Assembly (NCBI RefSeq): GCF_009914755.1
Contig: NC_060943.1
Origin: the human T2T-CHM13v2.0 reference genome, Homo sapiens
Strand: one strand, 5' to 3'
Length of the DNA: 64,000 nt
Positions 382-22,156 of the stretch are shown here, one piece after another; within the stretch, counting starts at the first letter, position 1, and the number at the start of each line of letters is the position of its first letter. The notes under the pieces were generated by a model that searched no databases, was not told the origin of the DNA, and worked only from the letters and a program-made list of their open reading frames with translations. Made by a program: the position numbers and the translations under genes.

Positions 382-476
382 CTGATGCAGTTCCTCACAT
401 GCTACTATCAGGACATTCTTTTTTCCTCTCATTTGTAGCCAGCCATGAGTGTGGTCATACCATGAGTCATGAGTCA
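382..476 (-). pseudogene. SULT2A-like sulfotransferase pseudogene copy A, exon homologous to SULT2A1 exon 4
   Basis: Minus strand reads cctcttttcctcatctttctcacag|TG ACT CAT...CTG CAT CAG|gtaacc. It is 95 nt (phase 1 to phase 0) and translates (V)THDSWYDHTHGWLQMRGKKNVLIVACEELHQ, versus recalled SULT2A1 VLYGSWFDHIHGWMPMREEKNFLLLSYEELKQ. Lies inside ORF-track 139..567. Confidence 0.9.
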
Positions 477-1825: not shown

Positions 1826-2815
1826 AGAGATGCTAAGTATTTTTGTAACATGGAGCAGCTCTGAACACTTTGGTCAATAAGAAAATTGAGGCTCGTAGAA
1901 GTTAAACCATTCTTCTGCTGAAAATAGCTAGTAAAAGGTTGAATAATCGCTGTTTGAATGCCGACATTGGGACCTCTGAGAGGAGAGCATTTATGCAGGA
2001 ACATGCTAGATCATGGACTTTGGGAGCATGTTATGCTGCTATAGCAAAAATTGTACTAGTTAAAAATATGGTTACTCCATGAATTACAAGGTAATCTCAC
2101 AAGATGCCAGATAATTGCACAAGCTGGCAGAAAGAAAAATGATGTTTTAAATTTTTTATTTTTGGCATGATAGCCTTTAAAAATAACTTTTATGGAAGTC
2201 CACCCTTTAAAAACAATATTTTAAAAAATTGAAATACAGGTTAAATTTGAAGCTCTTTAATATAGTGATTAAAGCTGCACATGATGTTGACCATGCAGAT
2301 ATTAGTACCTTAATGCCTTCACCACACCTAACTCCCATCCTGGTTCTAAGCTGTACCAGCTTTTCTCACCTCATGCAGTTTCCTGAGTTTGTCCTTCAGC
2401 TTGGTTCCTTGGTAGCCTAGTCTACAGGTTTTTCTTTATATCTTATTTTTTTTAAGTTAACAATGGATCCTGGAGGCCACTGTGCGGTGATGTGGCAGTA
2501 TTCCCTATTCCTGTTTTAAGTTGGGTACTATTCCAGAATATTGTCAGTGGCAATTTTGGTTCTTTCTTGTTTGCTATTTCAAGTAAAGAACATTTGAATA
2601 GTTTTGTAAATCCATCTTTTTTTGTGTTTTTGCTTTTGTACTTCTTCTGTTTGATAAGGGGGAATTCTGCATGAACATGTAACTGCAGGAACGTGAGAAT
2701 TTGCAAACTTTTCCTACATAGATTTATGTCATTTTCCATCTAACCACCAATATATGAGCATGCCTGTCTATGAGAGTCTCACCACTAGGGTGATTGGAAT
2801 GATCTGAATGCTAGC

Positions 2816-3280
2816 TGTGGTAGGCAGCAGGTCCCCCAGTACACACACACCAAAGATGTCCATATCCTAATCCTCAAATCTGTGAATGTGTTACTTTTCA
2901 TAGCGCAAGTGACTTTGAAGGTGTGATTAAAGAATCTTCAGATGGGGAGATTATCTTGGCCTATCCAGCTGGAGACAGTGTAATCACAAGGGTCATTTTA
3001 AGAGGCAGGCATAAGTGGCAAAAGCAGAGAAAGAGATGTGATGACAAGAAGGATGTGGCCATGTGACGAAGTGAGGGCAGCCTCTAGAAGCTAGAAAAGG
3101 CAAGAGGTAGATCCTCTCCTGGAGCCTCAGGAATGGCAGGTAGCTAGGCCCACAGATTAATTTTAGCTCATAAGACATATTTTGGAATTCTGAACTGCAG
3201 AACATGGCAGTTTAAACAAAACTGCTTAGTTTTAACTGCTGTATTTGTGGTAATTCATCACAGCAGAGAGAAACTAATGA
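2816..3280 (+). mobile_element. MaLR LTR (MLT1D-like)
   Basis: tgtggtaggcag...aaagatgtccatatcctaatcc...gtaatcacaagggtc...cagcctctagaagctagaaaaggcaag...aaactaat, typical of MLT1. Also present in copy B. Confidence 0.8.
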
Positions 3281-3562
3281 ACCTCCTAGTGTGATAGGTG
3301 AGAAATGGTATCTCGGTGTGGTTTGAATTACACTTCTCTTATTTTGAGTATGGTAAGTTGTATTTTTAAATGGTCACAGCACTTAGAATAATTTGGAGGG
3401 ACAAAGCATGTTCACTGAGATTCTGTTGCTAACTGGAGGTACCAGAGATTTAACCAACACCTAGGTTTGGAGGGCAAAATTTGTTTAAACCATGAGACAG
3501 TAAGACCTGGACGTAGAAACTCCACCATTCTTCTAGGAACCCCTATTTTGAGTCATAGTCAC

Positions 3563-3689
3563 CATGTCCTTGAAGAAACCATTCAAAATATTCTTCAGAT
3601 GACTCTGGATTTTTGACCATCCTTATTGCTCTCCAGAAATAGTAACTAGAAATAACAGCATCTCTGGGATTTCTCACTATGTAAATAAT
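3563..3689 (-). pseudogene. SULT2A-like pseudogene copy A, exon homologous to SULT2A1 exon 3 (3'-phosphate-binding motif)
   Basis: 127 nt with an open frame IIYIVRNPRDAVISSYYFWRAIRMVKNPESSEEYFEWFLQGH+G, versus recalled SULT2A1 VIYLMRNPRDVLVSGYFFWKNMKFIKKPKSWEEYFEWFCQGT. Donor gtgact. The acceptor is mutated to CG (tttacg|ATT). Confidence 0.95.
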
Positions 3690-5326
3690 CGTAAATGAAA
3701 AAGGGGATATTGAGAATAAATATATCCATTTCCTTTGCTCCAGGATTTTTGCAAGTGGATAAAAAAATTTAACTCACATTAGAGTCTTTGGCTGTAGCTC
3801 AGCCTTCTTTAAATCATTCATTTAACAAAATGTATTGAGAACCTACTATGTGCTAGACATACAGCTATAATGGATCAATGAAAGAAGTCTGCGTCCGAGT
3901 CCTCTGTACATTTATGGCTAAGGGCTGGGCTGTACAGGCATGGGGCAAGATCACCAGAATTTTACCAAATAGTAGTGACTTCTAACAGCTTCTTAACACT
4001 CCTGTTATCTAGCTGAGTCATTGAAAGCAGCCAGCTACAAACAGACACATTCCAGGCAGTGGAGAAAGAGGAGAAAAATGCCCCCTAACTTCTCATCAGA
4101 AAAACAAAGGCCTAATGAAAATGGAAAGTTGTCTTTAAAGTGCTGAAGGGGGAAAAAAAACCTTCATGCTAAATATGCTTCACGTATGAGGATGAACTCA
4201 AGGTAATCTTAGAAACATGAAAGCTGTGAGAATTTATTGCTGTCAGCTCTACACGACAACGAATTCTAAAGTCCTTCAGTCTGTGAGGAATCATAGTGTA
4301 TGTCAAGGGGGAAGGAAGGAAGAAGCCAAGAAACAGTAAAGGAGTAAATTTAAAAGACATTTTCTTTCCTCTTCCAATTAACTTAAAAGACAGCTGAGTG
4401 TTTAAAGCAAAATAACCCCGTAGACAGTTTTTGCAATGTAGATAAGAGTGAAAATTGTGAGGGAAATAGTACAAAGAAAGATGGTGGGTAAATGGAATCA
4501 GTTAATAACTCCAGATTTTCTCCTCGTTCAGCTTGACAAAGTCACCAAATCCTCCATCTGCATAACTCCATCAGTAAACACTGCATTTAATCTCCTGGGA
4601 CAACCAATACTTTTTCTGTATTTTTCTCCCTGCCTCACCCTCTTTACCTATCTATGATATTTCTTAAAATAGATGTTTTCACCAACTGCACCCTGGGATC
4701 TGATACTAAGCTAGGCTGTCAGTAAATGATATTGTCACCACAGAAACCAAGTATATGTCTACTCTTTGTCGTGCCCAAATACAAATCTGTAAATTCCCTT
4801 AATATGTGGGTTGGGGTCATCTTAATCATCACCTTTTTCTCAATCCTGTTTCAGAGCCTGACACATGATAGGTGCATAATACTTAAATGTATGAAGGAAT
4901 AAAAGGCATGAATGCATACATAAGTTAATTAATAATCAGAAGTGAGTACATGGAAGAATCAGTACTGCCAGTTTAAACACACAGAAACTGTGCTTCAAAG
5001 ACGCTGCACTATTTGCCAGTAGACAAAATGTGGAACCAAGGTTCAAACTGGAATTTTCTGAGATAAAGTCACAATCATATTACAGAGCTTGGTCTTGGGC
5101 TGTTTGCTTGGGCTATTTGTTTTCTTTTTCATTTATTCATCCTATATTTTCTTAAATCTCTACAACGTTTTAAGCACTTTGCCAAATTAGTATAAAACAG
5201 TAAAAATAGTAAGATAATAAACATGGTCTTCATAATCATGGATGTCACGGTAAAATGAATCAGCCTGACAGTAAGTAAGCCAGCAAATGAAACATAGCAC
5301 AGTAGTAATACAATGTGATAGCATAA

Positions 5327-5653: not shown

Positions 5654-6109
5654 TGATAATACTGCTACTACCACATCACCTAAGATGCTTCAAGGGAGTT
5701 TCATACAGTTTTGATGGTTTTAATGCCATATGATTTAAACTATAATCTATGATGAGTACACATTCACATTTTATAGCACAGGGTCACTCAATGCTAGAGG
5801 TTTTATGTAGAGCTCCTGAAATGATGCATCTGAGTCCTTTCAGCTGGGAAAGACATGGTCTGAATAGGTAATATCATGGTTAGAAAAACCCAATTGGGTT
5901 TCACATGTGAGTACCAAACCTATATTTCCTCTCAAATAGAGGTACTGGCTTATAATTGAGGTGCTTCCCACATGGGCTTGTCAACATTGGGTGCCTCTGT
6001 GTTGAGGGTGCAGCCAGGATTTATAAAACTGAAGACTGAATATTCTCTGGGGCAATACCAGGCAGATTCTCTTGTATATGACATTGTAGCTTAGAACAAG
6101 ATTTTCTAA

Positions 6110-6480
<371 letters not shown>

Positions 6481-6501
6481 GACATTCCATTATTAACTCA
6501 C

Positions 6502-6706
6502 CTTGGCCTTGGAATTAATGACTTGGAGAAGACCTGAATGGGGAGGGGAGAGCAGTAGAAGCATGAGCCTTTCTGACTGTCTACATGTTCTTGCCCAGTT
6601 TTAACTTCTAGTCATGGCGAATGATCGCAGGAGAGCACAGACTGGACCCTGCTACGATCTCTCTTGGAGTGGATCAGACTGATGATCACCAACAACCAAC
6701 TCATTC
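6502..6706 (-). pseudogene. SULT2A-like pseudogene copy A, exon homologous to SULT2A1 exon 2
   Basis: Translates (G)MSWLLVIISLIHSKRDRSRVQSVLSCDHSP*LEVKTGQEHVDSQKGSCFYCSPLPIQVFSKS[fs]NSKAK|gtgagt, versus recalled [34 protein letters not shown]...SSHLPIQLFPKSFFSSKAK. Length 205 nt vs expected 209. TGA at 6612-6614, catalytic His replaced by Pro, acceptor CGG. Confidence 0.93.
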
Positions 6707-6974
6707 CCGGATAAGGAAGAAGAGAGTGTCACCTACTTCAGTGTGGTTTCAACCCTACTTCTGCATCTTAAAGACACTGTATGGTTTCAGCAGTAGTGCC
6801 CCTGTTCATTAGTCCCCCTGATGTTTTCATTCCTCATCTCATCTTTTTCTTAGCAGCATTCAATGAATCCTTCATTCTAGAAACACTCTATATCTTTGGT
6901 TTTCATGAGACCATTCTCACCTTGTTTTGTCCTGTGACTTTTTTGAAAAAAACAAAAACAAAAAACCCTTTTTT

Positions 6975-7421
6975 TCTTTTTAAATTCTGGTAAAAAACAC
7001 AATGAAAATTTGCTATCTTAACCATGTTGAAATGTGCAGTTAGTAAAGTACATTCACATTGTGGTGCAAGCCATCACTACCATCCATCACTAGAACCCTT
7101 TTCATCTTGCAGATCTGAAACTCTACCCATTAAACGACTTCCCATCTTCCCATCCCCACAGCTCCTAGCAACCAACATTCTACTTTCTCTATCAGTTTGA
7201 CTACTCTAGGTACCTCATATGAGTAGAATCATACAGCATTTATCCTTCTCTGCCTGGCTTATTTCACTTGTATAATGTCCTCAAGGTTCATTCATGTTGT
7301 AGCATGCATCAGAACTTCCTCCCCTTTTAAAGGCTGGATAATATTTCATGGTATGTTTAGATCACATTCTGTTTATCCATTCATCCATCAGTGAACACTT
7401 GTGCTCCTTCCAACTTTGGGC
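6975..7421 (-). mobile_element. L1MB-type 3' UTR fragment (preceded by an L2-like relic ~6720-6935)
   Basis: aaaatttgctatcttaacc...acattcacattgtggtgcaagccatcactacc...ggtacctcatatgagtagaatcatacagc...tcaaggttcattcatgttgtagcatg is the antisense L1M 3' end. Confidence 0.8.
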
Positions 7422-7849
7422 TGTTGGGTGTCCTGCCACTGTTGCTCCTAGTGCTCAATCTCGTTTATTCCCTCCTAATCAAGTGTACAACGTTGGACAC
7501 TGTGCAGGATGATGCCACTTCATCTTGGATGCTAATCTGCCATGTTGACTTCTGATTAACCCCAGGCCCAGGAATGCCTCAAGATTTCTACTTTACTTAC
7601 TGTTGCTTGTGTAAGCCAAGACAACCTTGATGTTATCATAAACATGTACTTACCTAAGTCCTGTCCTTTGGCAAATTATGGGCTATGAGACACAGCATTC
7701 TTGCCTTTCCCTGAGGGGTCAATTTCAGCGATCCTACACATTCCTTCTGAAGCACTTATGCTCTTTCTATATGGTATGTAAGCTCTCGGTCTGGGGAGTA
7801 ACAGTGCAGAGATCTACCTGTCTTGTTGCCACATGTTTCTAAACTTTCC

Positions 7850-7855
7850 AATAAA
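7850..7855 (+). terminator. Poly(A) signal in the LTR, likely the MORT 3' end
   Basis: AATAAA followed by a T/GT-rich downstream element. Confidence 0.7.
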
Positions 7856-9988
7856 TCACCTTCTACTGACAAACTGGATTTGTCTTCCTTATTCTTTGGT
7901 TTCTTGGTTCCTTTTTGGTATGGATTTGCTTTCCCTATGTGGTTCTTTCATGAAACTGTTGGTGAGCTAGCCAGGAGGAATTCAGGAGCCAAAGTATGGG
8001 CAAGGGAAGGAAGCCTCAGTTGGGGAAGTCTTGGGGCAGCCCTCTGTGTGTGTGGGGTGATATTGCCCGTTTGCTGGATGCCTGCAGACCACCGCCTGAG
8101 TACGGGGATGGCCCAGAACACTACAGGGTCTAGAGTGCTTGTGAGAAGAAAACCACACCATGCACTGAAGGTCCCTGAAGGTGGCAACAGAGGGGTGGCC
8201 GCTATTATGGGTTGCACATGTGACCCCAGAAGTACAGTTAGCAACCGAGACAAAGGTACAGAAGCTAGAGAAGTAATTACAGTTAGAGAAGGATATGAGG
8301 ATCTCCACATCTGTGTTAGCATCTAATTTGGTGCATAAGCTTGAAACTCAGGAGGTGCAGGTGGAAACTGTTGTCTGCCGCTTTTATGCAGCTGCGAGGA
8401 CAAAAACTGCACTGGTTGCAAGTGTGAGCTGTCCTTGCTAGACCAGACCAAGATGCTGAGACCTGGAATCCTTGGGAATCGACTTGTGAGTCAGATGAAG
8501 ACAGAGGTTATCTCAGAGTAGGAGGATTGTCCTCCCCTTTTGAGGGCAGGAGGAAAACAAAACCCAACAGATACAGCTGTACAATAGCAAGCAGTCTTTT
8601 CACAGCAAAGCTTAACTCTGAGAGTACACCTCAGCAGAACTATTGGACACAGCAAGAACTCTTAAAGCAGCTGCCAAGAGACAGCATAGCCACATGGATG
8701 GTGGTGTGGCTATGCGAGAGGCCCAGTGAAGGGGACTTCCCAGGTCAGACACTGGCATGGTGGTCTCTGGAGGAGGCACAGAGCAATTCAGGGGAGCTGG
8801 GTATGCAGCAGGCCATCTATGACCAGCAGTTGCAGTTGTCCCCTTGTAGGACAAGATGTATATTATGTGCGGGATGCCGTAGCTGGTCTTGGAGAAACTG
8901 AAAGGGGAAGGGATAAGGTCCAACTGGTTACCAAGGGAAAAGAAAAGGAGATAGCAAGTCTGTTGGACTTGAAAAAGGAGGTCTAAAAGACCCAGTTAGG
9001 ATTACCAGAAAACAAATGTGGTACAATCTGATCTCAGCTGGGATAAACCAAGAAACGGAATCAGCAACCTCATGCCATGTTGGTGGGCATTTGAAAGGAC
9101 TTAACTCCCGCCCAACTGTTTAGACCTTTTCCCAGCATCCGGCCAGAAAAGGAGGATGGAGGAGATGAAACTATGTATTAAAAAAGAACTCCGGTCTCTG
9201 CTCCAGCCTTGGACTCCTATCCAGCCTACAGACTGCGGGGCGGGGGGCGGGGGTGGGAGGGGGCGGAAGGGGGGCAAGGTTGCCTCTAGGGATGAGCAGT
9301 AGAGGGTGACTAGAGGCTCCATGTGGAGCTCACAATATCAGAGTTGAAAAACACATGCAGAGGACACTAGTTGTAGTGGACACAGGTGCAGAGTGCACCT
9401 TAGTTCTTGGAAGCCCAGAGAGACACGCTGGTAAGTGGACAGCTCTAGATGGTTACTGGGGACAAACAATCCAAGTGGAACAAACTCCTCCCCTTCTTGG
9501 TATTGGATGGTGGAGTTTCCCTGCTTACTATACTGTCTTTATCTCACCTATTCCAGAAAACATGTTGGATATGGACATCCTTTAAGGATGCACTTTGCAA
9601 ACGTCCATGGGGGAATTCCACCAATGAGTTTGGGTGGTAAACACTATTTAAAGAGTGGCAGTGAAATAGGCACCTGTACTTTTTCCTCCCCCATGATGTA
9701 TCATCAGTGTGAAGTAACAAATTATTTTCTTGGCAGAATAAAAGAAATGACAGCCACCATAGAGGAACTAGCCAAAGTTAATATTAGTCGGCCAGCCCAG
9801 AGTCCCTTCAGGAGTTCTGTGTGACTGGGAAAGGAAATCTGACAGCACCGGGCACGTGACAGTAGACTACAGGGAATTCAATAAGGTATTTGCTGACATA
9901 TACCCTGTTGTGCCTAATATCATCTAAGTGATAGAACAACTATACAAACTATAGGTACTTATCATCTGTATTAGATTTAGCCAATGCC

Positions 9989-10283
9989 TTTTTTTTTTTT
10001 CTTGAGAAAAGGTCTTGCTCTGTCACTCAGGCTGGAGTGCAGTAGCACCATCATAGCTCACTGCAGCCTTGACCTCCTGGGCTCAAGCGATCCTTCAGCT
10101 GCAGCCTCCTGAGTAGCTGGGACTACTCAGGAGGTGTGCCATCAAGGTGCGCCACCAAGCCCAGCTAACTTTTCTTATTTTCTGCAGAGATGAGAAAATA
10201 AAGAGACCAGGCTGATCTTAAACTCTTGACCTCAAGTGATCCTCCCACCTCAGCCTCCTAAAGTGCTGAGATTACAGGCACAT
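9989..10283 (-). mobile_element. AluJ-like at the ERV deletion junction
   Basis: Poly-T plus gctcactgcagccttgacctcctgggctcaagcgatcc (AluJ diagnostic). Confidence 0.85.
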
Positions 10284-10549
10284 ACTAGATTTGTCTACCT
10301 CATTCTTTGGTTTCTTGACTCCTGTGTTGGGGAATGCTTTGCATATACAGCCCTTTCACAAAAGAGACCCCACAAAACAATTGATCTCATTCTGTACATC
10401 CAGCTAAAATCACATGTGTACTAGCTGATAAGGCAGAACAAAAGTAATTAAGAGGTTTTATTTACTTAAATATATAGTGAGTCAAAGAAATGTGGATGAG
10501 CATTGATTTGAAGGCTATTTATAGATCATGAAGGTAAGCCTGGTGTTCA

Positions 10550-10703
10550 CCCATGTTGAGGGTGTATCTTCCCCACTCAGTCCACTGATTTATAAGCCAA
10601 TCTCCTCTGGTAATACCCTGAAGACACAGCCAGAAGTAATGTTTACCAGTTACATACATATTCCTTAATCCATTCAAGTTAATACCTGAAATTAACCATC
10701 ACA
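10550..10703. mobile_element. MLT2-like LTR fragment
   Basis: cccactcagtccactgatt...aatctcctctgg...ccttaatccattcaagttaatacctgaaattaaccatcaca. Confidence 0.65.
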
Positions 10704-10834
10704 TCAACCCATGTTCTATGGTACAAAGCACTGTGGATGCATTATCTGTTTACACAAGGAAACTATAGGCTCAAACAGGCTTAATCAGTTTCTAAACTGA
10801 CCCTTTAATTTAGTGGGATATGTTGAATCAAGGA

Positions 10835-11786
<952 letters not shown>

Positions 11787-11792
11787 CTATGC

Positions 11793-12700
11793 TATGAGGA
11801 CTAAGCTCTGATATTTTTATGTTGCCCAAATTCCTACCTAAGGGGTCTAAGGAGTCATGCCCTACAAACTATAAATTCTCATCAGATGGGTTTTGTCTGG
11901 CCCTACGCATCACGAGTTACTTTTCAGTATAACTCTGGCATAACATTATGAGACCAGGAAAAAAATATTTAACCCCAAAATATATTTCCTTGCCATACCT
12001 TGAAACTGCCCTGCTAAGTCTCTTTTGGGAAAAATCCACATCCTATAGAGAATCTCCTTTCCCCCTTGTTTTCCTTCATTTCTTTCCAGATCCAGGAGAT
12101 AATCAACTAAGAGCCAGGTACCCTTTTGGGCTTGATAAGAAACATTTTACAACCTGCTCTCTCTCTCAAGTCTGCTGAGAACTTCCTCTGCACAATAAAA
12201 TTTGGCCTCCACAATCCTTTATGTTATCCTGAACATTCCTTTCTATTGATCCCAGGTGTTCAGATAAACTCAACCAATTGTCAACCAGAAAATGTTTAAA
12301 TTTACCTATAGCCTGGAAGCCACCACTCTGAATTGTCCTGCCTTTCTGAACCTAAACAATGTATTTCCTAAATGTATTTGATTGATGTCTCATGCATCCC
12401 TAAAAATCTATGAAACCAAGCTGTACCTCAACCACCTTGGGCACATGTTCTCAAGACTTCCTGAGGGCGGTGTCACGGGCCATGGTCACTCATATTTGGC
12501 TCAGAATAAATCTCTTAAAATATTTTACAGAGTTTGACTCTTCGTCAACAATAATCTGGCGCCCAAACGTGGGGCCTCAGAGAAGACTCAGGACCCCTAA
12601 GGAGTTGCCTGAAACCGGAGCTAAGGTACCAGCAGGGGCCCATTGAAGTCCCACTGAGTTCAAGCTTCTCCTCCGGTGGAACTGGTAAGTCCTCCTGAGC
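11793..12700 (+). mobile_element. MER4-family LTR plus PBS and start of the internal region
   Basis: tgaggactaagctctgat...cctacctaaggggtctaaggagtcatgccctac to ...tttacagagtttgactcttcgtcaaca (12550), then tggcgcccaaacgtggggc (resembles a tRNA-Lys PBS). Confidence 0.82.
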
Positions 12701-12704
12701 CCCA

Positions 12705-13075
12705 GACCTCTCCTTGACCAGACTTTTCTTAGGCTTCCCTGAGCCCTCTTCTTGAGTAGGCCTGGACCTTGGATTTCTGTGTCCATCCTTGCTGCACCCA
12801 GTTTTAGCAAGAATCCTGTTAAGTAGGTTTAGTGAGAATTCCCTTATCCTTGATCAGGTTCCTCATCTTCCACCCTTAATGTCTAAGTCCTTGGCCTGCC
12901 TTTAGCAGGATTCTACCCTTAATACCTAATCAAGTTCCTGTTTGTGATTTCCCACCCATTGACCCCCTTACTCTTATAGTTGGCTACAAAACCAACTGTT
13001 GTTGCTATATTGGGGAGTTGAGTTCACTGTCTCTCCCCCATTGCAATTGTCTTGAACAGTATTACTTACCGTTTA
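12705..13075 (+). mobile_element. MER31-like LTR fragment
   Basis: ctctccttgaccagac...ctgagccctcttcttgagtaggcctggaccttgg...tttagcaagaatcctgttaagt. Confidence 0.65.
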
Positions 13076-15067
13076 CACACGTGTATTCTTTTCCTGTTTC
13101 CCTCATTTGCATGAGAAATGGAATTCTGCCTTTACAGCCTTGATACAGAGCAGTGGGTGTTGTGTGAGATACAGTATTGAAGATGAGTCTCACCTCTGTC
13201 TGTGATGAAATAGATTGTGAATTGTGAAGAGAATGCAGGTAGCAATGTAGGAGCTAAACTTAAGTGTCCTCTAATTTAGAGTCAATGACTTTGTCGTTTC
13301 TGCTGTGAATCTGGCTACTCTCTGCTATGCCAGAAAATGATGTACTTAACTGCAGCAAACACGTATCTTTAGTTTATCCTCCACTCACACAAACCTTTGG
13401 GACAGCACATGTTATCAGGAGTTTTCCCCCTCACATCTGTACTCTCTTCAGATGAATGTGGCTGGAGGGTCATGTCCCGAGGAATCTTATTACTTAGATA
13501 TTATTGATTTTTGCAGAGTGGGGCATCTGACGTATGCACACCAGTGCCTCTTCTCTTGACATTTTTGCTCTTTGTATCAACAGTGAACTTGTTTCTCTCT
13601 GTATATCTGGACAATAAAATTGAATTCCTCATACTCAGAAATGGTCAGGTCACATTCAGGTCATGTGGGCACAAAATAATAGAAACTTACACTGAGACCT
13701 AGAAAATGAAACATTCAAGCAGAAAACTGCAGAGATTTAGGGACTTCTGTTTGATTCCACAATTGCAGCTATTCCTGAAAAAGGTGGAGCTCAATTCCTA
13801 CATTGGATTCATTGAAAAAGCACAGTGTTTTCTGTTTCCCTTTTGCTTGAATTCCTTGTCATGTCTAATGTTGTCTGCAACTCAGGGTTTGGAATAATCC
13901 AATAGGAGCTCTGATTGTGGACATGATCTAACGTTCTAATAACCAAGTGATGTGTTCAACCTGATATAGATAATAAACTCCAAGACCTTCAAAAACCAAA
14001 AGGAAGACTTTTTTTTCATCTTACACTGAAGATACCACATTATTTTTATGCATGGAAGGGGTCTCAGCACTATTTCAATGAATACAGTCCCAATCCCCAT
14101 TTGAAAAATAAGAAAACTGAGGCTCATAGAAGTTATGTCATCTTTCTGCCGAAAAACAGCTATTAAAAAGTTGGATAGTCACTGTTTGAATGCAGACACT
14201 TGGAGCTCTGAAAGGAGAGCATTTATGCAGGAACATGCAAGATCATGGACCTTGGGGCCATGCCATGCTGCTATACCAAAATTGAAGTAGTTAAAAATAT
14301 GGATACTCCATGGGTTCATAGGGGAACCTCGCAAGATGCTGGAGACTTGGATAAGCTGACAAAACTAGAACACGTTTTAAATTTGGGGGCGGGAGCATTA
14401 CAGCCTTTAAAATATCTTTTATAAAAATTCCACTCCCAAAATCTGAGAGTACTTGTCAGAAACAGTATTTTTTTAAACTCGGAATACAGGTTAAAATCCA
14501 AGCTCCTTAATTCTGTATTTAAGGCTGTCCATGATATCGACCATGCAGACGTTAGTAGCTTCATGTCTTGACCACACCTGACTCCCAACCCTGACTCCAA
14601 GCTGTGCCAGCTCTGCTCTCCCTGTGCAGTCTTCTGGGTTGTCCTCTGTCTTGGTTCATTGGTAGAATAGTCACAAACTTTGTTCCATACCTTAATCTTT
14701 TTAAGTTAACAGGGGATCCTAGAGGCCACTCTGCAGTGGTGTGGCAGTATTCCTTATTCTTGTTGTAAGTTGGGTGCTGTTCCAGGATATTGTCGGTGGG
14801 AATTTTGGTTCTTTTTTGCTATTACAAATAAGAAACATTTGAATAGTTTTGTAAATCTACCTTTTTCGTGGTTTTGCTTGTATACTTTTTTCACTGGAGA
14901 AGGGGGAATTCTGCATGAAAATGTAAATTTTAAGTGTTAGAATGTGAGGATTTGCAAACTTATCTTACACAGACTTGTGTCATTTTCCTTCTAACCGCCA
15001 ACATATGAGCATACCTGTCTACCCAGGGTCTCTCCACTAGAGTGATCTGAATAATTTGAATGCTAGC

Positions 15068-15860
15068 TGTGTGGTAGGAAGGAGCCTCCCCACCGCTCTC
15101 AACACCAAAGATGTCCATGTCTTAATCTCAAAATCTGTTCATTTGTTACTTTTCATGGCAAAAATGACTTTGCCAATGTGATTAAAGGATCTTCAAACAG
15201 GGAGAGCACCATGGACTATTCAGGTGAAGGCACTGTAATCACATGGGTCATTATAGGAGGGAGGCTGAAGTGTAAGAAGCAAAGGAGACCTGATGACAAG
15301 AGAGATGCAGCCTTGTGACAAGAAATGAGGGCAGCCTGTAGAACAGGAGTCCCCAACCCCTGGGCCGCAGACCGGTACCAGTCTGTGACCTGTTAGAAAC
15401 TAGGCCACACAGAAGGAGTTGAGCAGCGAGCAAACGTCACCGCCTGAGCTCTGCTTCCTGTGAGATGAGTGGCAGCATATTCTCACCGGAGCGTGAACCC
15501 TATTGTGAACTGCGCATGTGAGGGATCTAGGTTGAACGCTTCTTATGAGAATCTAACTAATGCTTGATGACCTGAAGTGGAACAGTTTCACCTTGAAACC
15601 ATTGCCCCATCCATCTTCCAGAAATCCCATCCCTGGTGCCAAAATGGTTGAGGACCACTGCTCTTGAAGCCAGCAAAGGCAAGAAGTAGATTCTCTCCTG
15701 GAGCCTCAGGAATGGCAGGCAGCTAGGCCCAGACATTAATTTTAGCTCATAAAGTATATTTTGGAATTCTGAACTACACAACATAATTTTTTTGTTTTGT
15801 TTTGCTTTAACTGCTATGTTTATGGTAATTTGTTACAGCGGAGATAAAAAAATGAATACA
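15068..15860 (+). mobile_element. MLT1D-like LTR (copy B), interrupted by MER1B
   Basis: Same element and flanks as 2816-3280. Confidence 0.8.
15344..15660 (+). mobile_element. MER1B-like hAT-Charlie DNA transposon
   Basis: TIRs caggagtccccaacc / ggttgaggaccactg. 8-bp TSD ctgtagaa/ctcttgaa; the empty site ctctagaa is seen in copy A. Confidence 0.88.
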
Positions 15861-16127
15861 CTTCTCAGTATGATAGGTAAGAAATGGTATCTCAGTGTAG
15901 TGTGAATTACACTCCTCTTATTTTGAATGTCATAAGTTATCTTTTTTAATGTTCATAGTACTTAGAATAATTTGTATGGACAAAGCACGTTGACTGAGCT
16001 TCTGTTGCTAACTGGAGGTATCGGATATTTAACAACACTTAGAAGTTTGGATGGCAACATTCATTTAAACTGTGAGACAGTAATACCTGTTGAGGTGCAG
16101 AAACTCCACTACCCCTTCAAGAATCCT

Positions 16128-16719
16128 TTTTTTTTTTTTGAGACAGAGTTTTGCTCTTGCTGCCCAGGCTGGAGTTCAGTGGCGTGATCTCGGCTCACCA
16201 CAACCTCCGCCTCCCAGATTCAAGCGATTCTCCCGCCTCAGCCTCCCATAGCTGGGATTACAGGCATGAGCCACCACGCCCGGCTAATTTTGTATTTTTA
16301 GTAGAGACAGGGTTTCTCCATGTTGGTCAGGCTGGTCTCGAACTCCCGACCTCAGGTGATCCTCCTGCCTCAGCCTCCCAAAGTGCTGGGATTACAGGCG
16401 TGAGCCACTGCACCTGGAAGAATCCATTTTTTTTTTGAGACAGGGTCTTGCTCTGTTGCCTGGGCTGGAGTGCAGTGGTGTGACTATGGCTCACTGCAGC
16501 CTTGAATTCCTGGGCTCTAGCAATCCTCCCACTTCAGCCACCTGAGCAGCTGGGACTACAGGCATGGGCCAGCATGTCCAGCTAATTTTTTTGATTTTTA
16601 GAAGAGACGAGGTCTTACCATTTTGCCCAGGCCAGTCTCAAACTCCTGAGCTGAAGCAGTCCTCCCAGCTCGACCTCCCGAAGTGCTAGGATTACAGGTG
16701 TGAGCCACTGCACCTGGCC
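16128..16719 (-). mobile_element. Two adjacent antisense Alus (AluS ~16128-16417, AluJ ~16427-16719)
   Basis: Poly-T plus Alu bodies, with aagaatcc/aagaaccc repeats at the junctions. Absent from copy A. Confidence 0.9.
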
Positions 16720-16747
16720 AAGAACCCATATTTAGAGTCAGACTCAC

Positions 16748-16871
16748 CATATCCTTGAAGAAACCATTCCAAATATTATTTAAATGACTCCGTATTTTTG
16801 ACCATCCTCATTCTCCAGAAATAATAACCAAAAGTAACTATATCTCTGGGATTTCTCACTAGGTAAACAAT
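16748..16871 (-). pseudogene. SULT2A-like pseudogene copy B, exon 3 homolog
   Basis: tctctctttttcatttaag|IVYLVRNPRDIVTFGYYFWRMRMVKNTESFK*YLEWFLQGY+G|gtgagt. 124 nt (one codon lost), TAA at 16776-16778, both splice sites canonical. Confidence 0.93.
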
Positions 16872-17544
16872 CTTAAATGAAAAAGAGAGATAATAAGAAT
16901 AAATGTATCCATTCTTCTTGCTTCAAGATTCTTGCAAAAGGCAAAAAACATCAAACTCCCATTAAAGTTTTGGCTATAGCTTGTCCTTCTTTAATTCATT
17001 CATTTAACAAAATGTATTGATAACCCACTATGTGCTTGACATCTACTTAGACACTGTAGAAGGAACAGAGGACAAGATACGGGTCATTTCTGCCCTGAAG
17101 AACATTATAATATAAGGCAGGGAAGAGGCTAACTAATGTTTGGACAATCAAATGATGTTACTACACTTGGGCACCACTGTTTAAGAATCCCTGGGCTGTA
17201 AATCAGGAACTGTGAGTTTGTTGGGATTCTGCCAGAGACTCTGACTCAGTGCTACTCCAGGAATTTTATCTTTCAGACCTCTCTTTCTTTTTGTAGGAAT
17301 TCCTACTCTATCCCATATAAGCAAATCTCAGGGACTAAGCAAGTAGATGTTAGCAGTCAACCATATGTAAGATTCTTTTATAAAATTCAACATGATGGCG
17401 TGAATAAACTCACTATGCTACCACTGGTTGTGAAACCTGAAGAGATTAAACAAACTTTGCATTTTCTCAAAACAAACAAAAAAGAGTTTGTTAGAATTAA
17501 TAAAGCTGACCCCAAGCTAGGATAAGTTGGATCCAGTGTCATAC

Positions 17545-17732
17545 AAGGCCATTTCCAATTCTAAACAAATAACGTTGACCACATGGAGCCTGTGGGGAAA
17601 ACTGGTCAACTCTCACCTGAAGTTCCAAAAGTTGAGAATATCATATTCTGTCCCAGAAATTAATTTGTAATCCAAATTCACCTGGTCACCAACACTGTTG
17701 TTAAATTTGATATTCTTCAGAAAGGAGTTAAG
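17545..17732 (-). pseudogene. Vomeronasal type-2 receptor (V2R/VN2R) exon fossil (extracellular domain, exon 4-like)
   Basis: tatttttaag|LNSFLKNIKFNNSVGDQVNLDYKLISGTEYDILNFWNF[deletion/frameshift]QVRVDQFSPQAPCGQ matches the V2R pattern L(H/N)xFLKNxxFxNxxGDxVN...EYDIxNFWNFPxGLGxKVKVGxFSPxxPxGQ. 3' end approximate. Confidence 0.85.
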
Positions 17733-18084
17733 CTTAAAAATAGTGCACTGTTACAGGATGGAAAGAGTTCTGAATTTGGAAAGAAGAAACTTGAATTAGA
17801 GTAATACCTTTGAAACTTATTAGATGTGTGGCTTTGGAAAAAGTCCCTTATTGTTTAAATCTTCAACTGTAAAGTTAGTTATTCAATTTTATTTTTACAA
17901 GAATTATGTGAGATAATACCTTTGATGGCCCATGAACAAAAATGTGGTATATATAAAGTAAAAATTAGATAAAGAAAACATTATATATGTAATGTAATGA
18001 TAATTTAATATATAGTATGATAATGGAAATACCCCTTACTTCCTTGGTGGGATGAATGAGGACAGAAGAATCAAAATAATCTCT

Positions 18085-18483
18085 TGTTATTGGTTGAATT
18101 TTGTCTGCCCCAAATTTTGCATGTTGAAGTCCTAACTCCCAGTACCTCAGAATGTGACTGTATTTGGATATAGGATTTTTACAGAGTTAATTAAGTTGAA
18201 ATGAGGTCGTTAGGGTGGGTCCTAATGCAATCTGACTAGTCTCACCATGTCTCCATGGGTTTTCTCTGGGTACTCCAGATTCCTCCCACATCCCAAAGAT
18301 GTGCACAGTAAGTTAACTGGTATGTCTAAGTTGTCCCAGTCTGAGTGAGTGTGGGTGTGTAGTAGGCTACACAATCTAGGTTTGTGTAAGTACACTCTAT
18401 GATGTTTGCACAACAAGGTTCTTAGGAAATTGCCTAAGAACCCATTTCTCAGAATGTATCTCCATCCTTTAGCGATGTAGACT
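18085..18483 (+). mobile_element. MLT1 fragment (~18085-18235) followed by a Tigger3/MER7-like DNA transposon fragment (~18250-18483)
   Basis: gttgaagtcctaactcccagtacctcagaatgtgactgtatttgga (MLT1); gggtactccagattcctcccacatcccaaagatgtgc...gtaggctacacaatctaggtttgtgtaagtacactctatgatgtttgcacaa (Tigger3). Confidence 0.7.
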
Positions 18484-18619
18484 GTATTTCCATACTGTAA
18501 ATAGTCCCCTTGTGGTGGATTTCAATCTACCAATATGACATCACTGAATGTGGAGTTAGAAAGAAAGGTACAGTTCATGGCTCTCAGTTCCTACAGCTCT
18601 TTTAATTTCCTAAATGACT

Positions 18620-19410
18620 GCAGCAATAAAGTATCTTTTGTTAAAATATCTGGCCTTTTGTTCCTGGTTCCTGAAAAAGCTCCAGAACAGCTCCAGAGCC
18701 ATAAAGGTGAAAGACAGTATTTCAACCACACATGAGTTTATGTTAATGAGGTGATTTTTGGAAACTCTCAAGATAATCCCAATATTTGGGGGGAGTGGTG
18801 GCTAGTTGCCAGAGGAACCAGCCATGTGCTCAGAGGACTGGAACTCACAGCTCCACCCTCTACTTCTGGGAAAAGAGAGAGCCTGAAAATTAAGTTGATC
18901 GCCAGTGGCCAATGATTTAATCAATCACATCTACATAATGAAACCTTGAAAACCGAAAAGGCCTGAGTTCAAGCGGCTTCCAAGAAGGTAGACAAAAACA
19001 CATCCTCGTGCTGGGAGGGTGGTGCACCCCAACTCCACGGGCACAGAAGTTCCTGCACTAGGGATTCTCTCGGACCTTGCCCTACATGTCTCTTCATCTG
19101 GCTATTTGTATCCTTTAAAATATCTTTTATAATAAACCAGTAAACATAAGTGTTTCCTTGAGTTCTGTGAGCTGCTCTAGCAAACTAATGGAACCCAAGG
19201 AGCCGGCTGTGGGAGCCCCAATTTATAGCACATCTCTCTGAAACACAGGTACAACAATCTGGAGTTTGGAATTGGCATGGGAAGTGGGGGACAGTCTTTT
19301 GGGACTGAGCTGTCTAACCTGTAGGATCTGATGTTTTCCAGGTAGCGTCAGAATTGAATTGGAGTAGCGGTCACCTGGCTGGTGTCTGCTGCAGACAGGT
19401 TTTTTTGACA
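18620..19410 (+). mobile_element. MER21-like LTR
   Basis: ggccaatgatttaatcaatcacatctacataatgaaacc...gggagggtggtgcaccccaactccacgggcacagaagttcctgc...ataaaccagtaaacataagtgtttccttgagttctgtgagctgctctagcaaa. Confidence 0.75.
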
Positions 19411-19819
19411 TGTTAAGACATTATAAGAGACAATAGAAAAAATGTATACGATACAACCTTCTCTGAGTTATATTTCTCCATAGCCCTTTTTACTGTTCAT
19501 CAGACTGTTTATCTAACTCATGAATTTGTGGCTTGTCTCTCTCCGCTTCAAAGTAAATTACATAATAAGAGGACAGGGATTTTTTTTTCTCTGCTGTATC
19601 CCCCTGAATTGCTTTTCCTTATTTGTCTCACCTTCCAATACTAATTCTACAGTTCTCCTAGTCAGGGCTAGTCCCCTAAAACGGGGACCATTTCCATTTT
19701 GTTAAGGGGCTGAACGCGGTTCAAGCCTAGCAGATTGGTTCCAAAAACGTCGTGTTATTCACTGCCTCTGATCAGTGACATTCCCATTTGCAGCTGAAAG
19801 AGGTATTAATTCGCCAGAG

Positions 19820-20600
19820 TCACAACACGGTCGGGGTTCCTCGTCGCTGTCTTATTCCAAAATAAGCTTAACACAGAAAGATAATGACACTCCCACGGAC
19901 TGGCACAGAAGGCCGCGCTCCGAATGACATCGCGATCACAGAGGCACAGACAGCGTCACAAAGCCCCACGCGTACTCACACCGAAGGCTCAGCCGTCGCG
20001 CGTTTCCCTCCCAGGCCCCAGGAACTAGTAACTAGGGACGCTTCTGGTCTCTAGGCGAGGAGAGGGGGAGAGCGCAATCTTTGCGCCTGCGCACACTCCT
20101 GCTCTTACCCGCCGGAACCCTGGGCCACGCCCGGCTCGCGTAATCACGCACTGCGCAGGCACCGCCCGCTCTGCTCTAAGGTCCCTCTCACTCCTTCAGC
20201 AGCCCGAGGACAATCCCCTCAACACTAGGCCACGCCTTGTCTCCGCCCCTCTCGTCCGACCCCTGGAGAGAGGCTGGCGCCTGCGCGATGGGGGGTTCCA
20301 GCGTCGACTCACGGAGTCCTTCGGATGAGAGCGTCTGGGTGCCAGACGAGGCCGGGGGTTTGTTTTGGGTGGTTTGGGAGTCCGAGCTCGAGGGCTGGGC
20401 CAGGAAGGGCAGGCGAGGCGGGCGGCTCCGACGCGGGTCGCGAAGGCCCAGCCGCGTCCTCTGTCCCCAGGACGACTACATTTCCCAGAGGCCAGCGCGG
20501 CGCGCGTACTCGAGTCTGCGGGGCGGAGGCCGCGGCTCGGGGCTGCTGGGCGTTCGGGGCGGCTTGGGGCGGCGGGACCACTGGAGTGAGCTGTGGGAGA
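19820..20600 (+). promoter_or_regulatory. ZNF471: ZNF471 CpG-island promoter / non-coding exon 1
   Basis: CpG-dense. NRF1-like TGCGCCTGCGCA (20082-20093); ZNF143/SBS motif ACTACATTTCCCAGAGGCC (20475-20493); GC boxes. Candidate exon-1 donors ggg|gtttgt (20358) and gga|gtgagc (20586). Confidence 0.85.
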
Positions 20601-20662
20601 GATGGGGGTGTGCCTGTGTGTAAAAGATCTGTCAGAGTGTGAGGCTCCGTGAGAGGGTGTGG

Positions 20663-20697
<35 letters not shown>

Positions 20698-22156
20698 CAG
20701 ACCGAGAGTCCAGTGTGAGACCAGGGTATGTTCGTGTGTGACAGAGCGAGACGGGCCAGTGTGAGAGACCAGTGAGTGTGAGAGAGATAGGGATGTGCCT
20801 GCATTTGAAAGAGAGCGTGTGAAGCTCAGTGAGAGGTTGCGAGGTGTGTGGGTGTGTAAGTGTGTAACAGACCAGGTGTCCAGAGCGTGAGACCAGGATG
20901 TATTCGTGTGAGAGAGTGAGACGGGCTGGATGGAGTGTGAGAGACCAGTGAGTGTGAGAGATGGGCGTGTGCCTGTGTGTGAAAGGCCGGTCGGTCGGTG
21001 GGTGAGGCTCAATGAGAGGCCGGTGTGTGTTCGAGAGAGAGAAGAATCACCATGTATGCGAGACTAGACTGTGCAAGAACAGAGTGTGAGACTGTGGTAT
21101 GTTAATGTGTGAAAGGGAGACCAGTGAGTGTGAGAAATGGGTGTTTTGGGTGAAAGACCCGTCAGTGTGTGAGGCCGTGTTATGTGTGTCTGACAGACTG
21201 AGAGAGACCAGAGTGTGAGACCAGGGTGTGTTCGTGTGTGAGAGACAACATAGCGTGAGACCAGTGAGTGTGAGAGAGATGAGCACGTGGCTGTGTGTGA
21301 AAGACCAGTCATTATGTGAGGCTCCTTGAGAGGCTGGTGTGTGTGTATGAGAGAGAGAAAGAGACTAAACTGTGAGAGTCCAAAGAGTGAGACTAGGTTA
21401 TGTTGTTATGAGTTTGTGAGAGAGAGGGAGGCGATCAAAGTATAGGACAAAGTTATGTTTCCTGGCTTACGACTTCTAAGATCCTTGGAATCTCCAAAGT
21501 ATTAAGTGTCTTTTTGCATGCTAATGATTGGTGGGCTGGCAGCCTGTAGGTTGATCACGGTAAGGGATGGTCACAAGAACAATCTAGGCAGGATTAGAGG
21601 GTTGGGATTACCTGCCCCATCCCTCAATCTCCAGGGAAAGGAAAGGGAGCCACAGGTTAAACTGATCATCAGTGGTCAGTGATTTAACCAGTCATGCCTA
21701 CATTATGAAGCTTCCATAAAAACCCAAAAGGACTGGGTTCATCAAACTTCCAGATAGCTGAACACTGGAGGTTCCTGTAGGATGAGCCCCTTCCTATATA
21801 ACCTTGTCCTATGCATTTCTTCACCTGCATCCTTTGTAATATCCTTTATTACTACAAACGTGTTTCCCTAAGTTCTGTGAGCTGCCCTAGCAAATTAATT
21901 GAACGCAAGGAGGGGGTCATAGGAACCCCGATTTATAGCTAGTCAGAAGCACAAGTAAAACAACCTGGGGTTTGCAACTGGCATTGGAAGTGGGGAGCAA
22001 TTTTGTAGGGCTGAGCCCTCAACCTGTGGGATCTTATGCTGTCTCCAGGTAGATAGTGTCAGAATTGGGTTGCCCTAGAGGTCACCCACCTGGTATTCAC
22101 TGGGTTGCCCTAGAGGTCACCCACCTGGTATTCACTGAAGAACTTATTGCTTGCCT

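What the first reader, a model, noticed from the sequence alone, without database searches (positions are those of the whole stretch)
6502..6720. MORT (ZNF667-AS1) last exon is born from the antisense strand of the dead SULT exon 2
Seen: the plus-strand acceptor ttttaacttcTAG (6609-6611) is the reverse complement of the SULT Leu codon CTA, and the first exon bases TCA are the antisense of the premature TGA. The ~95 nt 6612-6706 are antisense SULT coding sequence; the rest of the exon is L2/L1/LTR. Recalled: MORT is a two-exon lncRNA silenced during immortalisation, with exon 2 described as largely repetitive. Inference: the main unique segment of this exon is exapted pseudogene DNA, which explains its origin and constrains its evolutionary age.
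Basis: partly seen in the sequence, partly recalled or inferred. Interest (0 to 1): 0.7.

Follow-up and report, generated by a model that had tools for sequence, protein, structure and literature searches.

The report
MORT exon starts inside antisense SULT2A relic

Summary
Partly confirmed. On the minus strand, 6706..6502 is exon 2 of an unprocessed, dead SULT2A-like gene. It matches human SULT2A1 at E 1.6e-7, and exons 3, 4 and 5 follow in order.

The MORT (ZNF667-AS1) acceptor is not TAG 6609-6611. It is CAG 6596-6598, so the exon starts at 6599. RefSeq says so, and two intron-less retrocopies of the RNA (chr11, chr3) carry a junction at exactly 6599.

The overlap with the SULT exon is 108 nt (6599-6706) of 1275. 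The branch-like CTGAC, the pyrimidine tract and the AG all lie in antisense SULT exon sequence. The rest of the exon is antisense SULT intron, dispersed repeats and an AATAAA signal.

Three retrocopies (chr3 9.6%, chr11 4.7%, chr8 1.5% diverged) act as dated snapshots:
- The same acceptor and poly(A) site were in use long ago, probably before the ape/Old World monkey split.
- The SULT exon half they cover was still open, with its own acceptor, at the oldest snapshot. The TGA arose after the chr11 copy.
- The source exon changed as fast as its retrocopies, so no sequence constraint is detectable.

This is an ordinary kind of lncRNA exon birth, with an unusually well documented history.

The parts
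6502..6706 (-). Exon 2 relic of an unprocessed SULT2A-like pseudogene (205 nt, against 209 in SULT2A1)
   Evidence: Ungapped 68-residue match to human SULT2A1, E 1.6e-7. tblastn E 5.7e-11. DNA alignment with SULT2A1, the chr19 paralog and the chr3 copy fixes both exon ends. Coordinates.
6612..6614 (-). In-frame TGA replacing the Trp of the conserved Ser-Pro-Trp
   Evidence: TGG is kept in SULT2A1, the paralog, and the chr3 and chr11 retrocopies, so the change is recent and private to this locus.
6707..6708 (-). Lost acceptor of SULT exon 2 (AG is now GG)
   Evidence: Alignments. AG is kept in SULT2A1, the paralog and the chr3 retrocopy. The A-to-G change is shared by the chr11 retrocopy and the window.
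6496..6501 (-). Donor gtgagt of SULT exon 2, still consensus-like
6573..6598 (+). 3' splice site of the MORT terminal exon: branch-like CTGAC (6573-6577), pyrimidine-rich tract, CAG 6596-6598. All of it is antisense SULT exon sequence.
   Evidence: RefSeq exon start 6599 (hub table). First AG after A6576; 14 of 20 upstream bases are pyrimidines. Junctions in the chr11 and chr3 retrocopies.
6599..7873 (+). ZNF667-AS1 / MORT terminal exon (1275 nt)
   Evidence: Hub RefSeq row. The chr11 retrocopy matches 6597-7873 at 94.8% over 1284 aligned columns. The chr3 copy covers 6599-6899 plus 6902-7873. The chr8 copy covers 6836-7873 at 99% and has an A15 tail.
6599..6706 (+). 108-nt overlap: MORT exon sequence that is antisense SULT exon 2
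   Evidence: Intersection of the two parts above.
6609..6611 (+).
6968..7443 (.). Dispersed repeat inside the exon, family not named here
   Evidence: 34 of the 42 listed genome matches fall in query 369-844 at 74-78% identity, out of 8139 first-look candidates. Vrba 2015 names L2, L1MB3 and LTR47B.
7517..7824 (.). Second repeat-like stretch inside the exon
   Evidence: One listed match on chr10 at 79%, query 919-1226. Weak evidence.
7850..7855 (+). AATAAA poly(A) signal, 18 nt before the exon end
   Evidence: All three retrocopies end at 7873.
3563..3689 (-). SULT exon 3 relic (127 nt, open frame, acceptor AG now CG)
   Evidence: Pfam Sulfotransfer_1 E 7.3e-12. Human SULT2A1 chains E 1.7e-14, against mouse SULT2A8 1.1e-6 and SULT2B1 3e-4. 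Alignment; coordinates.
382..476 (-). SULT exon 4 relic (95 nt, AG and GT intact); identical in span to an exon of the predicted lncRNA LOC105372471
   Evidence: hub table.
16748..16871 (-). Duplicate of SULT exon 3 (3-nt deletion, in-frame TAA) inside a tandem duplication
   Evidence: Pfam E 2.1e-6. Self-comparison; alignment; coordinates.

Best explanation
Shown. Between ZNF667 and ZNF471, on the minus strand, lies an unprocessed relic of a SULT2A-like sulfotransferase gene. Exons 2, 3 and 4 are in the window and exon 5 is just before it. Exons 1 and 6 were not found. The terminal exon of MORT (plus strand) starts at 6599, in the middle of the antisense of SULT exon 2. Its branch-like CTGAC, pyrimidine tract and CAG are all former SULT coding sequence read backwards. 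Its first 108 nt are antisense exon. The next stretch is antisense SULT intron 1, then dispersed repeats, then an AATAAA 18 nt before the end at 7873.

Mechanism, inferred. Transcription runs from the CpG-island promoter shared with ZNF667 through about 16 kb. A usable 3' splice site followed about 1.25 kb later by a poly(A) signal defines a terminal exon. This is ordinary exonisation of non-coding DNA. The AG corresponds to the CT of an ACT codon where SULT2A1 has ATT and the paralog has CGT.

History, inferred from three retrocopies.
- The same acceptor and the same poly(A) site were used when the chr3 copy (9.6% diverged), the chr11 copy (4.7%) and the chr8 copy (1.5%) were made. The spliced RNA therefore probably predates the great apes, and probably predates the split from Old World monkeys (my odds about 0.6).
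- The SULT exon half covered by the copies was still intact at the chr3 stage. It lost its acceptor between the chr3 and chr11 stages, and gained the TGA after the chr11 stage.
- The exon has since changed at the neutral rate.
For: SULT identity and gene structure.

Acceptor at 6598|6599:
- Hub RefSeq row.
- chr11 locus L003 1643-1776 matches chr19 window -9314..-9183 (93.3%, 134 columns), directly abutting 6597-7873 (94.8%).
- Exon 1 ends ...GTAG followed by gtgaga.
- chr3 locus joins window -1470..-1316 (88%) to 6599.
- The CAG is the first AG after the branch-like A.

Poly(A) site: all three copies end at 7873. The chr8 copy has an A15 tail. AATAAA is at 7850-7855.

Order of SULT lesions: alignment of SULT2A1, the paralog, the chr3 and chr11 retrocopies and the window. 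Nei-Gojobori dN/dS between the chr3 snapshot and the paralog is 0.26 over 35 codons (8 synonymous, 10 non-synonymous differences).

Distances are tree-like:
- window-chr8: 15 of 1038 sites
- window-chr11: 58 of 1273
- window-chr3: 112 of 1259
- chr11-chr3: 116 of 1260

Neutral rate: 24 changes unique to the window against 28 unique to chr11 (chr3 as outgroup); 8 against 7 for window and chr8 (chr11 as outgroup).

The DNA is old at this locus. A paralogous stretch 130 kb upstream aligns across the exon boundary (window 6481-7466, 73%, K2P 0.31). SULT exons 2-5 are collinear.
Against: - No mRNA, RNA-seq or other primate genome could be consulted, so present-day use of 6599 rests on the RefSeq row.
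- Vrba 2015 (PMC4844203, passages) reports that baboon and rhesus have no homology to exon 2 at this locus and concludes that MORT is limited to higher primates. My older date requires a secondary loss in Old World monkeys, which I could not test.
- The dating uses genome-wide divergences recalled from general knowledge, and short alignments. The three chr3 blocks range from K2P 0.074 to 0.112.
- No target-site duplications were found for the chr11 or chr8 copies.
- The chr3 copy is rearranged. It carries, upstream, an exon-bounded SULT exon 2 in sense orientation that is only 74-76% like either chr19 copy. No source for it exists in this genome.
- The 'still intact' claim covers only 35 codons plus one splice site. 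Other parts of the gene may already have been dead.
Confidence: 0.85

Rival explanations
1. One reading: the main acceptor is TAG 6609-6611, so the exon starts at 6612 on the antisense of the premature TGA.
For: The TAG exists, with 15 of 20 pyrimidines upstream. It lies 13 nt from the annotated site, so it could serve as a minor alternative acceptor. The hub lists a second RefSeq transcript that I could not see.
Against: RefSeq starts the exon at 6599. Both intron-less retrocopies that cover the junction start at 6599. The CAG is the first AG after the branch-like site. When the chr11 and chr3 copies were made, the codon was still TGG, so 'antisense of the stop' cannot describe the exon's birth.
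Confidence: 0.05
2. The exon-2 DNA is a recent arrival at this locus, by duplication or insertion in apes. That would explain its absence in Old World monkeys, and the SULT-like piece came along with it.
For: Vrba 2015 found no exon-2 homology at the locus in baboon and rhesus. The region is rich in duplications.
Against: SULT exon 2 straddles the MORT exon boundary. It is followed in order and orientation by SULT exons 3, 4 and 5 over about 8 kb. The old paralog (K2P 0.31) aligns continuously from 5894 to 7466, apart from an Alu inserted in the window. The only closer copies in the genome are intron-less retrocopies, which derive from this locus and not the reverse.
Confidence: 0.05
3. The antisense overlap is functional. 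MORT pairs with sense transcripts of the SULT relic (the minus-strand lncRNAs here) or with SULT2A1 mRNA and regulates them.
For: Minus-strand lncRNAs are predicted across the region, and one reuses SULT exon 4 (hub table). When the acceptor first came into use, the SULT exon still looked coding, so MORT may have begun as a natural antisense RNA of a live gene.
Against: No annotated minus-strand exon covers 6502-6706 (hub table). The longest exact run shared with SULT2A1 exon 2 is 9 nt. The 108-nt segment took 4 substitutions in the source lineage against 1 in the chr11 copy, and the whole exon evolves at the retrocopy rate.
Confidence: 0.05

Closest known systems
Human SULT2A1 (bile-salt / hydroxysteroid sulfotransferase), chr19 of the same genome
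   Same: Best protein match for the relic's exons 2 and 3 (E 1.6e-7 and 1.7e-14). Same exon pattern of 209/127/95 nt, with the same boundaries.
   Different: Only 61-67% DNA identity in exon 2, so this is an old separate SULT2A-like lineage and not a recent copy. The relic has a stop, a 4-nt deletion, two lost acceptors and a broken exon 5, and no exon 1 or 6 was found.
lncRNA exons built from dead protein-coding genes and transposable elements (for example Xist from Lnx3; TE-derived lncRNA exons). Recalled from general knowledge; not read here.
   Same: A non-coding RNA exon assembled from former coding DNA plus repeats. Vrba 2015 already says that exon 2 evolved from repeats.
   Different: Here the coding relic is used on its antisense strand, so none of the old gene's own signals are reused. 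The old exon supplies the new 3' splice site by chance, and it appears not yet to have decayed when first used.
L1-mediated processed retrocopies (processed pseudogenes) of spliced RNAs
   Same: Introns removed exactly at annotated junctions, ends at the poly(A) site, 5' truncation (chr11, chr8), an A15 tail on chr8, and an inverted internal block on chr3.
   Different: The parent is a lncRNA. No target-site duplications were found. The chr3 copy records an isoform that no longer has a GT donor in the source, plus a SULT sense exon of unknown origin.

Membership tests
Cytosolic sulfotransferase, SULT2A subfamily (as a pseudogene) | Significant sequence similarity to the Sulfotransfer_1 domain, with SULT2A1 as the best match | tested here: met
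   Exon 3: Pfam E 7.3e-12, above the cut-off. PDB search: SULT2A1 1.7e-14 against SULT2A8 1.1e-6 and SULT2B1 3e-4. Exon 2: SULT2A1 1.6e-7, but Pfam alone is below its cut-off (14.5 against 22 bits).
Cytosolic sulfotransferase, SULT2A subfamily (as a pseudogene) | Unprocessed: exons collinear with the parent gene, separated by introns, with parent-like exon lengths and splice sites | tested here: met
   Exons 2 (205 nt = 209 minus 4), 3 (127) and 4 (95), and exon 5 from window -1475, in order on the minus strand.
Cytosolic sulfotransferase, SULT2A subfamily (as a pseudogene) | Disabling lesions | tested here: met
   TGA at 6614..6612. A 4-nt deletion near the 3' end of exon 2. Acceptors of exons 2 and 3 changed to GG and CG. 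Frameshift and stops in exon 5. Exons 1 and 6 not found in window -10000..22000.
Cytosolic sulfotransferase, SULT2A subfamily (as a pseudogene) | PAPS-binding motifs (5'-PSB loop and 3'-PB motif); motif names recalled | tested here: inconclusive
   The Arg-Asn-Pro-Arg-Asp stretch of exon 3 is kept. The 5' loop lies mostly in exon 1, which is missing here.
Terminal lncRNA exon made by exonisation of non-coding DNA | 3' splice site (branch point, pyrimidine tract, AG) followed by a poly(A) signal, with evidence of use | tested here: met
   for the signals. The RefSeq row and the retrocopy junctions and ends for use. Present-day junction reads were not available.
Processed retrocopies of MORT | Precise intron loss | tested here: met
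   chr11 joins exon 1 to exon 2. chr3 joins the alternative exon to exon 2. chr8 is truncated inside exon 2, so it is not informative.
Processed retrocopies of MORT | Poly(A) tail at the transcript end, and target-site duplications | tested here: inconclusive
   chr8 has an A15 tail. chr11 has A7 followed by a TA/CA microsatellite. chr3 has A7. No exact duplications were found: 9 nt or longer around the chr11 copy, 7 nt or longer around the chr8 copy; chr3 not tested.
Hominid-specific lncRNA (the published label for MORT) | Origin of the spliced two-exon RNA within the great apes | tested here: inconclusive
   Retrocopy divergences of 4.7% and 9.6% point to an older origin. No other primate genome could be examined. 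Vrba 2015 reports no exon-2 homology in Old World monkeys.

The most novel reading that the evidence does not exclude
MORT is not a great-ape invention. A spliced, polyadenylated RNA with today's acceptor and poly(A) site already existed in the catarrhine ancestor. It began as a natural antisense transcript of a SULT2A-like gene whose exon 2 was still intact. The sulfotransferase then decayed underneath it (acceptor lost first, stop codon last), and Old World monkeys lost the exon secondarily. Three retrocopies, including one of an isoform whose donor is now dead, are dated fossils of this history. They also show that the exon's sequence has drifted neutrally, so any function of MORT lies in the act or level of transcription, or in very short motifs.
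Probability: 0.45. Interest if true: 0.5.

Novelty: new member of a known kind. Interest (0 to 1): 0.4.

Why it matters
MORT / ZNF667-AS1 is widely studied as an RNA silenced at immortalisation and in many cancers, and its function is still unclear. Four points bear on that work.

1. The start of its main exon and its splice site come from a sulfotransferase relic. This fills a gap left by the published 'evolved from repeats' account. BlastX was reported to find nothing (PMC4844203, passages).

2. The retrocopies give a cheap, testable timeline that conflicts with the 'hominid-specific' label used to argue for a link with long lifespan.

3. The exon changes at the same rate as its retrocopies. 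That argues against a long sequence-specific functional element, and should temper designs that look for one, including deleting the 108-nt segment.

4. The chr8 copy (about 99% identical), and to a lesser degree the chr11 copy (95%), can attract probes, primers, siRNAs and multi-mapping reads aimed at MORT exon 2.

Tried and rejected
I repeated them with stops read as X.
- SULT exon 1 and exon 6. Pfam on X-read frames of 6700-16000 and 15900-24000 gave no further SULT hit except the exon 3 duplicate. tblastn with the SULT2A1 exon 1 and exon 6 frames over window -10000..22000 gave only noise (best E 1.8 and 0.93).
- An apparent Tyr-Pro-Gly match upstream of exon 2, which would have suggested a processed gene, is just the old pyrimidine tract. 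The DNA alignment puts the exon start at 6706.
- Target-site duplications around the chr11 and chr8 copies: none found.
- Source of the sense-oriented SULT exon 2 in the chr3 locus. It is 74% like the window copy and 76% like the paralog. It is not an inverted copy of the retrocopy's own antisense part (83% over 71 nt). No better match exists in the genome. Left unexplained.
- MORT as an antisense regulator of SULT2A1: the longest shared exact run is 9 nt. Rejected.
- Paralog locus as a live gene. Exons 1 and 2 are open, but no exons 3-6 lie in chr19:59447000-59459298.
- Literature. 0 papers hold ZNF667-AS1 with sulfotransferase. 0 hold ZNF667-AS1 with retrocop*. 1 profiling paper holds ZNF667-AS1 with 'processed pseudogene' (listing only). 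The listings for SULT2A1 with pseudogene and ZNF667 and for SULT2A, pseudogene and chromosome 19 showed no title or abstract about a 19q13.43 relic. These were listings only, and supplements were not opened.
- Repeat family names and exact repeat borders inside exon 2 could not be assigned, because no repeat library is on hand.

Full report
**1. What is at 6502-6720**

The plus strand reads ...cttgcccag|ttttaacttctag|tcatgg.... On the minus strand, one frame through 6728..6502 aligns without gaps over 68 residues to residues 42-109 of human SULT2A1 chains (E 1.6e-7). Stops were read as X for this search. Mouse SULT2A8 and human SULT2B1 score worse. Pfam Sulfotransfer_1 is matched only weakly by this exon alone (E 0.024, 14.5 bits against a cut-off of 22).

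A DNA alignment with SULT2A1 exon 2 from the same genome fixes the exon at 6706..6502. That is 205 nt, against 209 in SULT2A1.
- The donor gtgagt is still present.
- The old acceptor AG now reads GG.
- TGA (6614..6612) stands where SULT2A1 has the Trp of Ser-Pro-Trp.
- There is a 4-nt deletion near the 3' end.

**2. It is one exon of an unprocessed relic gene**

Pfam on X-read frames of the flanks, and tblastn with SULT2A1's own exon frames, find further exons on the same strand, in order:
- Exon 3 at 3689..3563: 127 nt, open frame, Pfam E 7.3e-12, human SULT2A1 E 1.7e-14, acceptor now CG.
- Exon 4 at 476..382: 95 nt, AG and GT intact.
- Exon 5 from window -1475 downward, with a frameshift and stops.

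Exons 1 and 6 were not found in window -10000..22000.

DNA identity to SULT2A1 exon 2 is only 61-67%. This is an old SULT2A-like lineage, not a recent copy of SULT2A1. The RefSeq table supplied with the finding has no row for it.

**3. Where the MORT exon starts**

RefSeq puts the last exon at 6599-7873, that is, after CAG 6596-6598. I could not align the mRNA, but the genome holds fossil cDNAs.
- A locus on chr11 matches window 6597-7873 at 94.8% over 1284 columns. It is directly continued by 134 nt matching chr19 window -9314..-9183 (93.3%). That stretch ends ...GTAG and is followed in the source by gtgaga, so it is the 3' end of MORT exon 1. The 15.8-kb intron is removed exactly at 6598|6599.
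- A locus on chr3 holds 6599-6899 and 6902-7873 (about 89-90%), with an inverted internal block (7539..7137). It is joined at 6599 to a 155-nt piece that matches window -1470..-1316 on the plus strand (88%).
- A third copy on chr8 covers 6836-7873 at 99% and has an A15 tail.

The CAG is also the first AG after a branch-like CTGAC (A at 6576), and 14 of the 20 bases upstream are pyrimidines.

The central claim survives, and in fact the whole 3' splice site is antisense SULT exon sequence.

**4. The rest of the exon**

Vrba et al. 2015 (PMC4844203; passages seen) describe two exons of 260 and 1270 bp and a 16-kb intron. They place L2, L1MB3 and LTR47B in exon 2 and report no BlastX domain hits. 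A 2021 review repeats this (PMC8346052, one passage).

My genome search with the exon shows a dispersed repeat at about 6968-7443. 34 of the 42 listed matches fall there, at 74-78% identity, out of 8139 first-look candidates. A second repeat-like stretch lies at about 7517-7824. AATAAA sits at 7850-7855, 18 nt before the end.

Only 108 of 1275 nt are former SULT exon. The stretch 6707 to about 6967 is former SULT intron 1, possibly including the L2.

**5. What the retrocopies add**

Pairwise Kimura distances are tree-like:

| Pair | Differences | K2P |
|---|---|---|
| window-chr8 | 15 of 1038 | 0.015 |
| window-chr11 | 58 of 1273 | 0.047 |
| window-chr3 | 112 of 1259 | 0.096 |
| chr11-chr3 | 116 of 1260 | 0.100 |

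Genome-wide divergences recalled from general knowledge are roughly 1.2% for human-chimpanzee, 6-6.5% for human-macaque and 10-11% for human-marmoset. On that scale:
- the chr8 copy dates to about the African-ape splits;
- the chr11 copy to the ape stem;
- the chr3 copy to before the ape/Old World monkey split.

This is in tension with the published view that MORT is limited to higher primates, because baboon and rhesus lack exon-2 homology at the locus ('hominid-specific' appears in the abstract of PMC5883388, listing).

The DNA itself is certainly old here. SULT exon 2 straddles the exon boundary, SULT exons 2-5 are collinear, and a paralogous stretch 130 kb upstream (K2P 0.31) aligns continuously across 6481-7466. 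The simplest reconciliation is a secondary deletion in Old World monkeys. I could not test this.

**6. Order of events**

Read in the SULT sense, the retrocopies are snapshots of the 5' half of SULT exon 2.
- The chr3 copy keeps the exon's own AG acceptor and an open 35-codon frame, with all three Trp codons that SULT2A1 and the paralog share.
- The chr11 copy shares the acceptor's A-to-G change with the window but keeps two of the Trp codons, including the one that is now TGA.
- The window today has GG, Trp-to-Arg, Trp-to-Cys and Trp-to-stop.

So the acceptor was lost between the two snapshots, and the TGA arose after the second.

Between the chr3 snapshot and the paralog, dN/dS is 0.26 (8 synonymous and 10 non-synonymous differences over 35 codons). 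The numbers are small, but the value fits a gene that stayed under selection for long after the duplication.

The paralog's exon 2, and an exon 1 with an ATG, are still open. Its antisense strand has AC where the window has the MORT AG.

The exon was therefore probably not 'dead' when MORT began to use its reverse strand. Other parts of the gene may have been.

**7. No constraint is detectable**

With chr3 as outgroup, the window lineage has 24 unique changes and the chr11 retrocopy 28. With chr11 as outgroup, the window has 8 and chr8 has 7. Within 6599-6706 the window has 4 changes (6612, 6622, 6627, 6632) against 1 in chr11.

The source exon has drifted like its retrocopies. This gives no support to the idea that the SULT-derived segment is a functional core. 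Very short motifs, or function through transcription itself, are not excluded.

**8. How it most likely works**

Transcription from the CpG-island promoter shared with ZNF667 runs into the old sulfotransferase gene from behind. A chance 3' splice site in the antisense of its exon 2, followed about 1.25 kb later by an AATAAA, defines a terminal exon. The signals and their use are shown. The absence of any role for the SULT-derived sequence beyond providing the splice site is inferred from the substitution pattern.

**9. Compared with what is known**

Exons of non-coding RNAs built from dead genes and from transposable elements are a known kind (recalled, for example Xist). This is a new, well-dated member. 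Its particular features are that the relic is used antisense and was apparently still intact at first use.

No paper in the searched library holds ZNF667-AS1 together with sulfotransferase (0) or with retrocop* (0). One unrelated profiling paper holds ZNF667-AS1 and 'processed pseudogene' (listing only). Supplements of the MORT papers were not opened and might list orthology details.

**10. Verdict**

Interest is moderate. The origin story is ordinary in kind. The fossil retrocopies and the conflict with the 'hominid-specific' label are the useful new points, and both are directly testable with primate genomes.

Noticed in passing
window 587-3860 and 13085-17042: An old tandem duplication at 74-83% identity, with an Alu pair inserted in the second copy. 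It carries SULT exon 3 and the intron downstream of it. The second exon 3 (16871..16748) has a 3-nt deletion and a TAA.
   Followed up: partly
window 382-476 (minus) and window -1475 downward: The exon 382-476 of the predicted lncRNA LOC105372471 is exactly SULT exon 4, with its original AG and GT. The gene's span ends inside SULT exon 5. This 'lncRNA' therefore looks like residual splicing of the sulfotransferase relic (hub table).
   Followed up: partly
G000 chr19:59449718-59452636 (+), about 130 kb before the window (locus L009 2719-2859 and 5431-5637): A second SULT2A-like relic, with exon 1 (ATG, open; E 4e-15 to the SULT2A1 exon 1 frame) and exon 2 (open, AG and GT intact). No exons 3-6 lie in chr19:59447000-59459298.
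   Followed up: partly
G000 chr3:135601190-135603518 (locus L008 5191-7519): A rearranged retrocopy of an extinct MORT isoform. From 5' to 3' it holds: an exon-bounded SULT exon 2 in sense orientation (74-76% to either chr19 copy, no source left in the genome); a 155-nt exon from window -1470..-1316; and MORT exon 2 with an inverted internal duplicate. How a sense SULT exon came to be spliced upstream is unexplained.
   Followed up: partly
window -1475..-1470 and -1316/-1315 (locus L022): The alternative MORT exon and SULT exon 5 start back to back on opposite strands from one palindromic CCTAGG, so each strand's acceptor AG is the other's complement. The alternative exon's donor reads AT in this genome but GT in the paralog, so the isoform is probably extinct.
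   Followed up: partly
G000 chr8:60393865-60394902: A young MORT retrocopy: 15 differences in 1038 nt, an A15 tail, truncated at window 6836. It could capture reads, primers or siRNAs meant for MORT exon 2.
   Followed up: partly
window 6188-6480: An Alu inserted 21 nt downstream (SULT sense) of the exon 2 donor. It is absent from the paralog alignment, which resumes at 6197.
   Followed up: no
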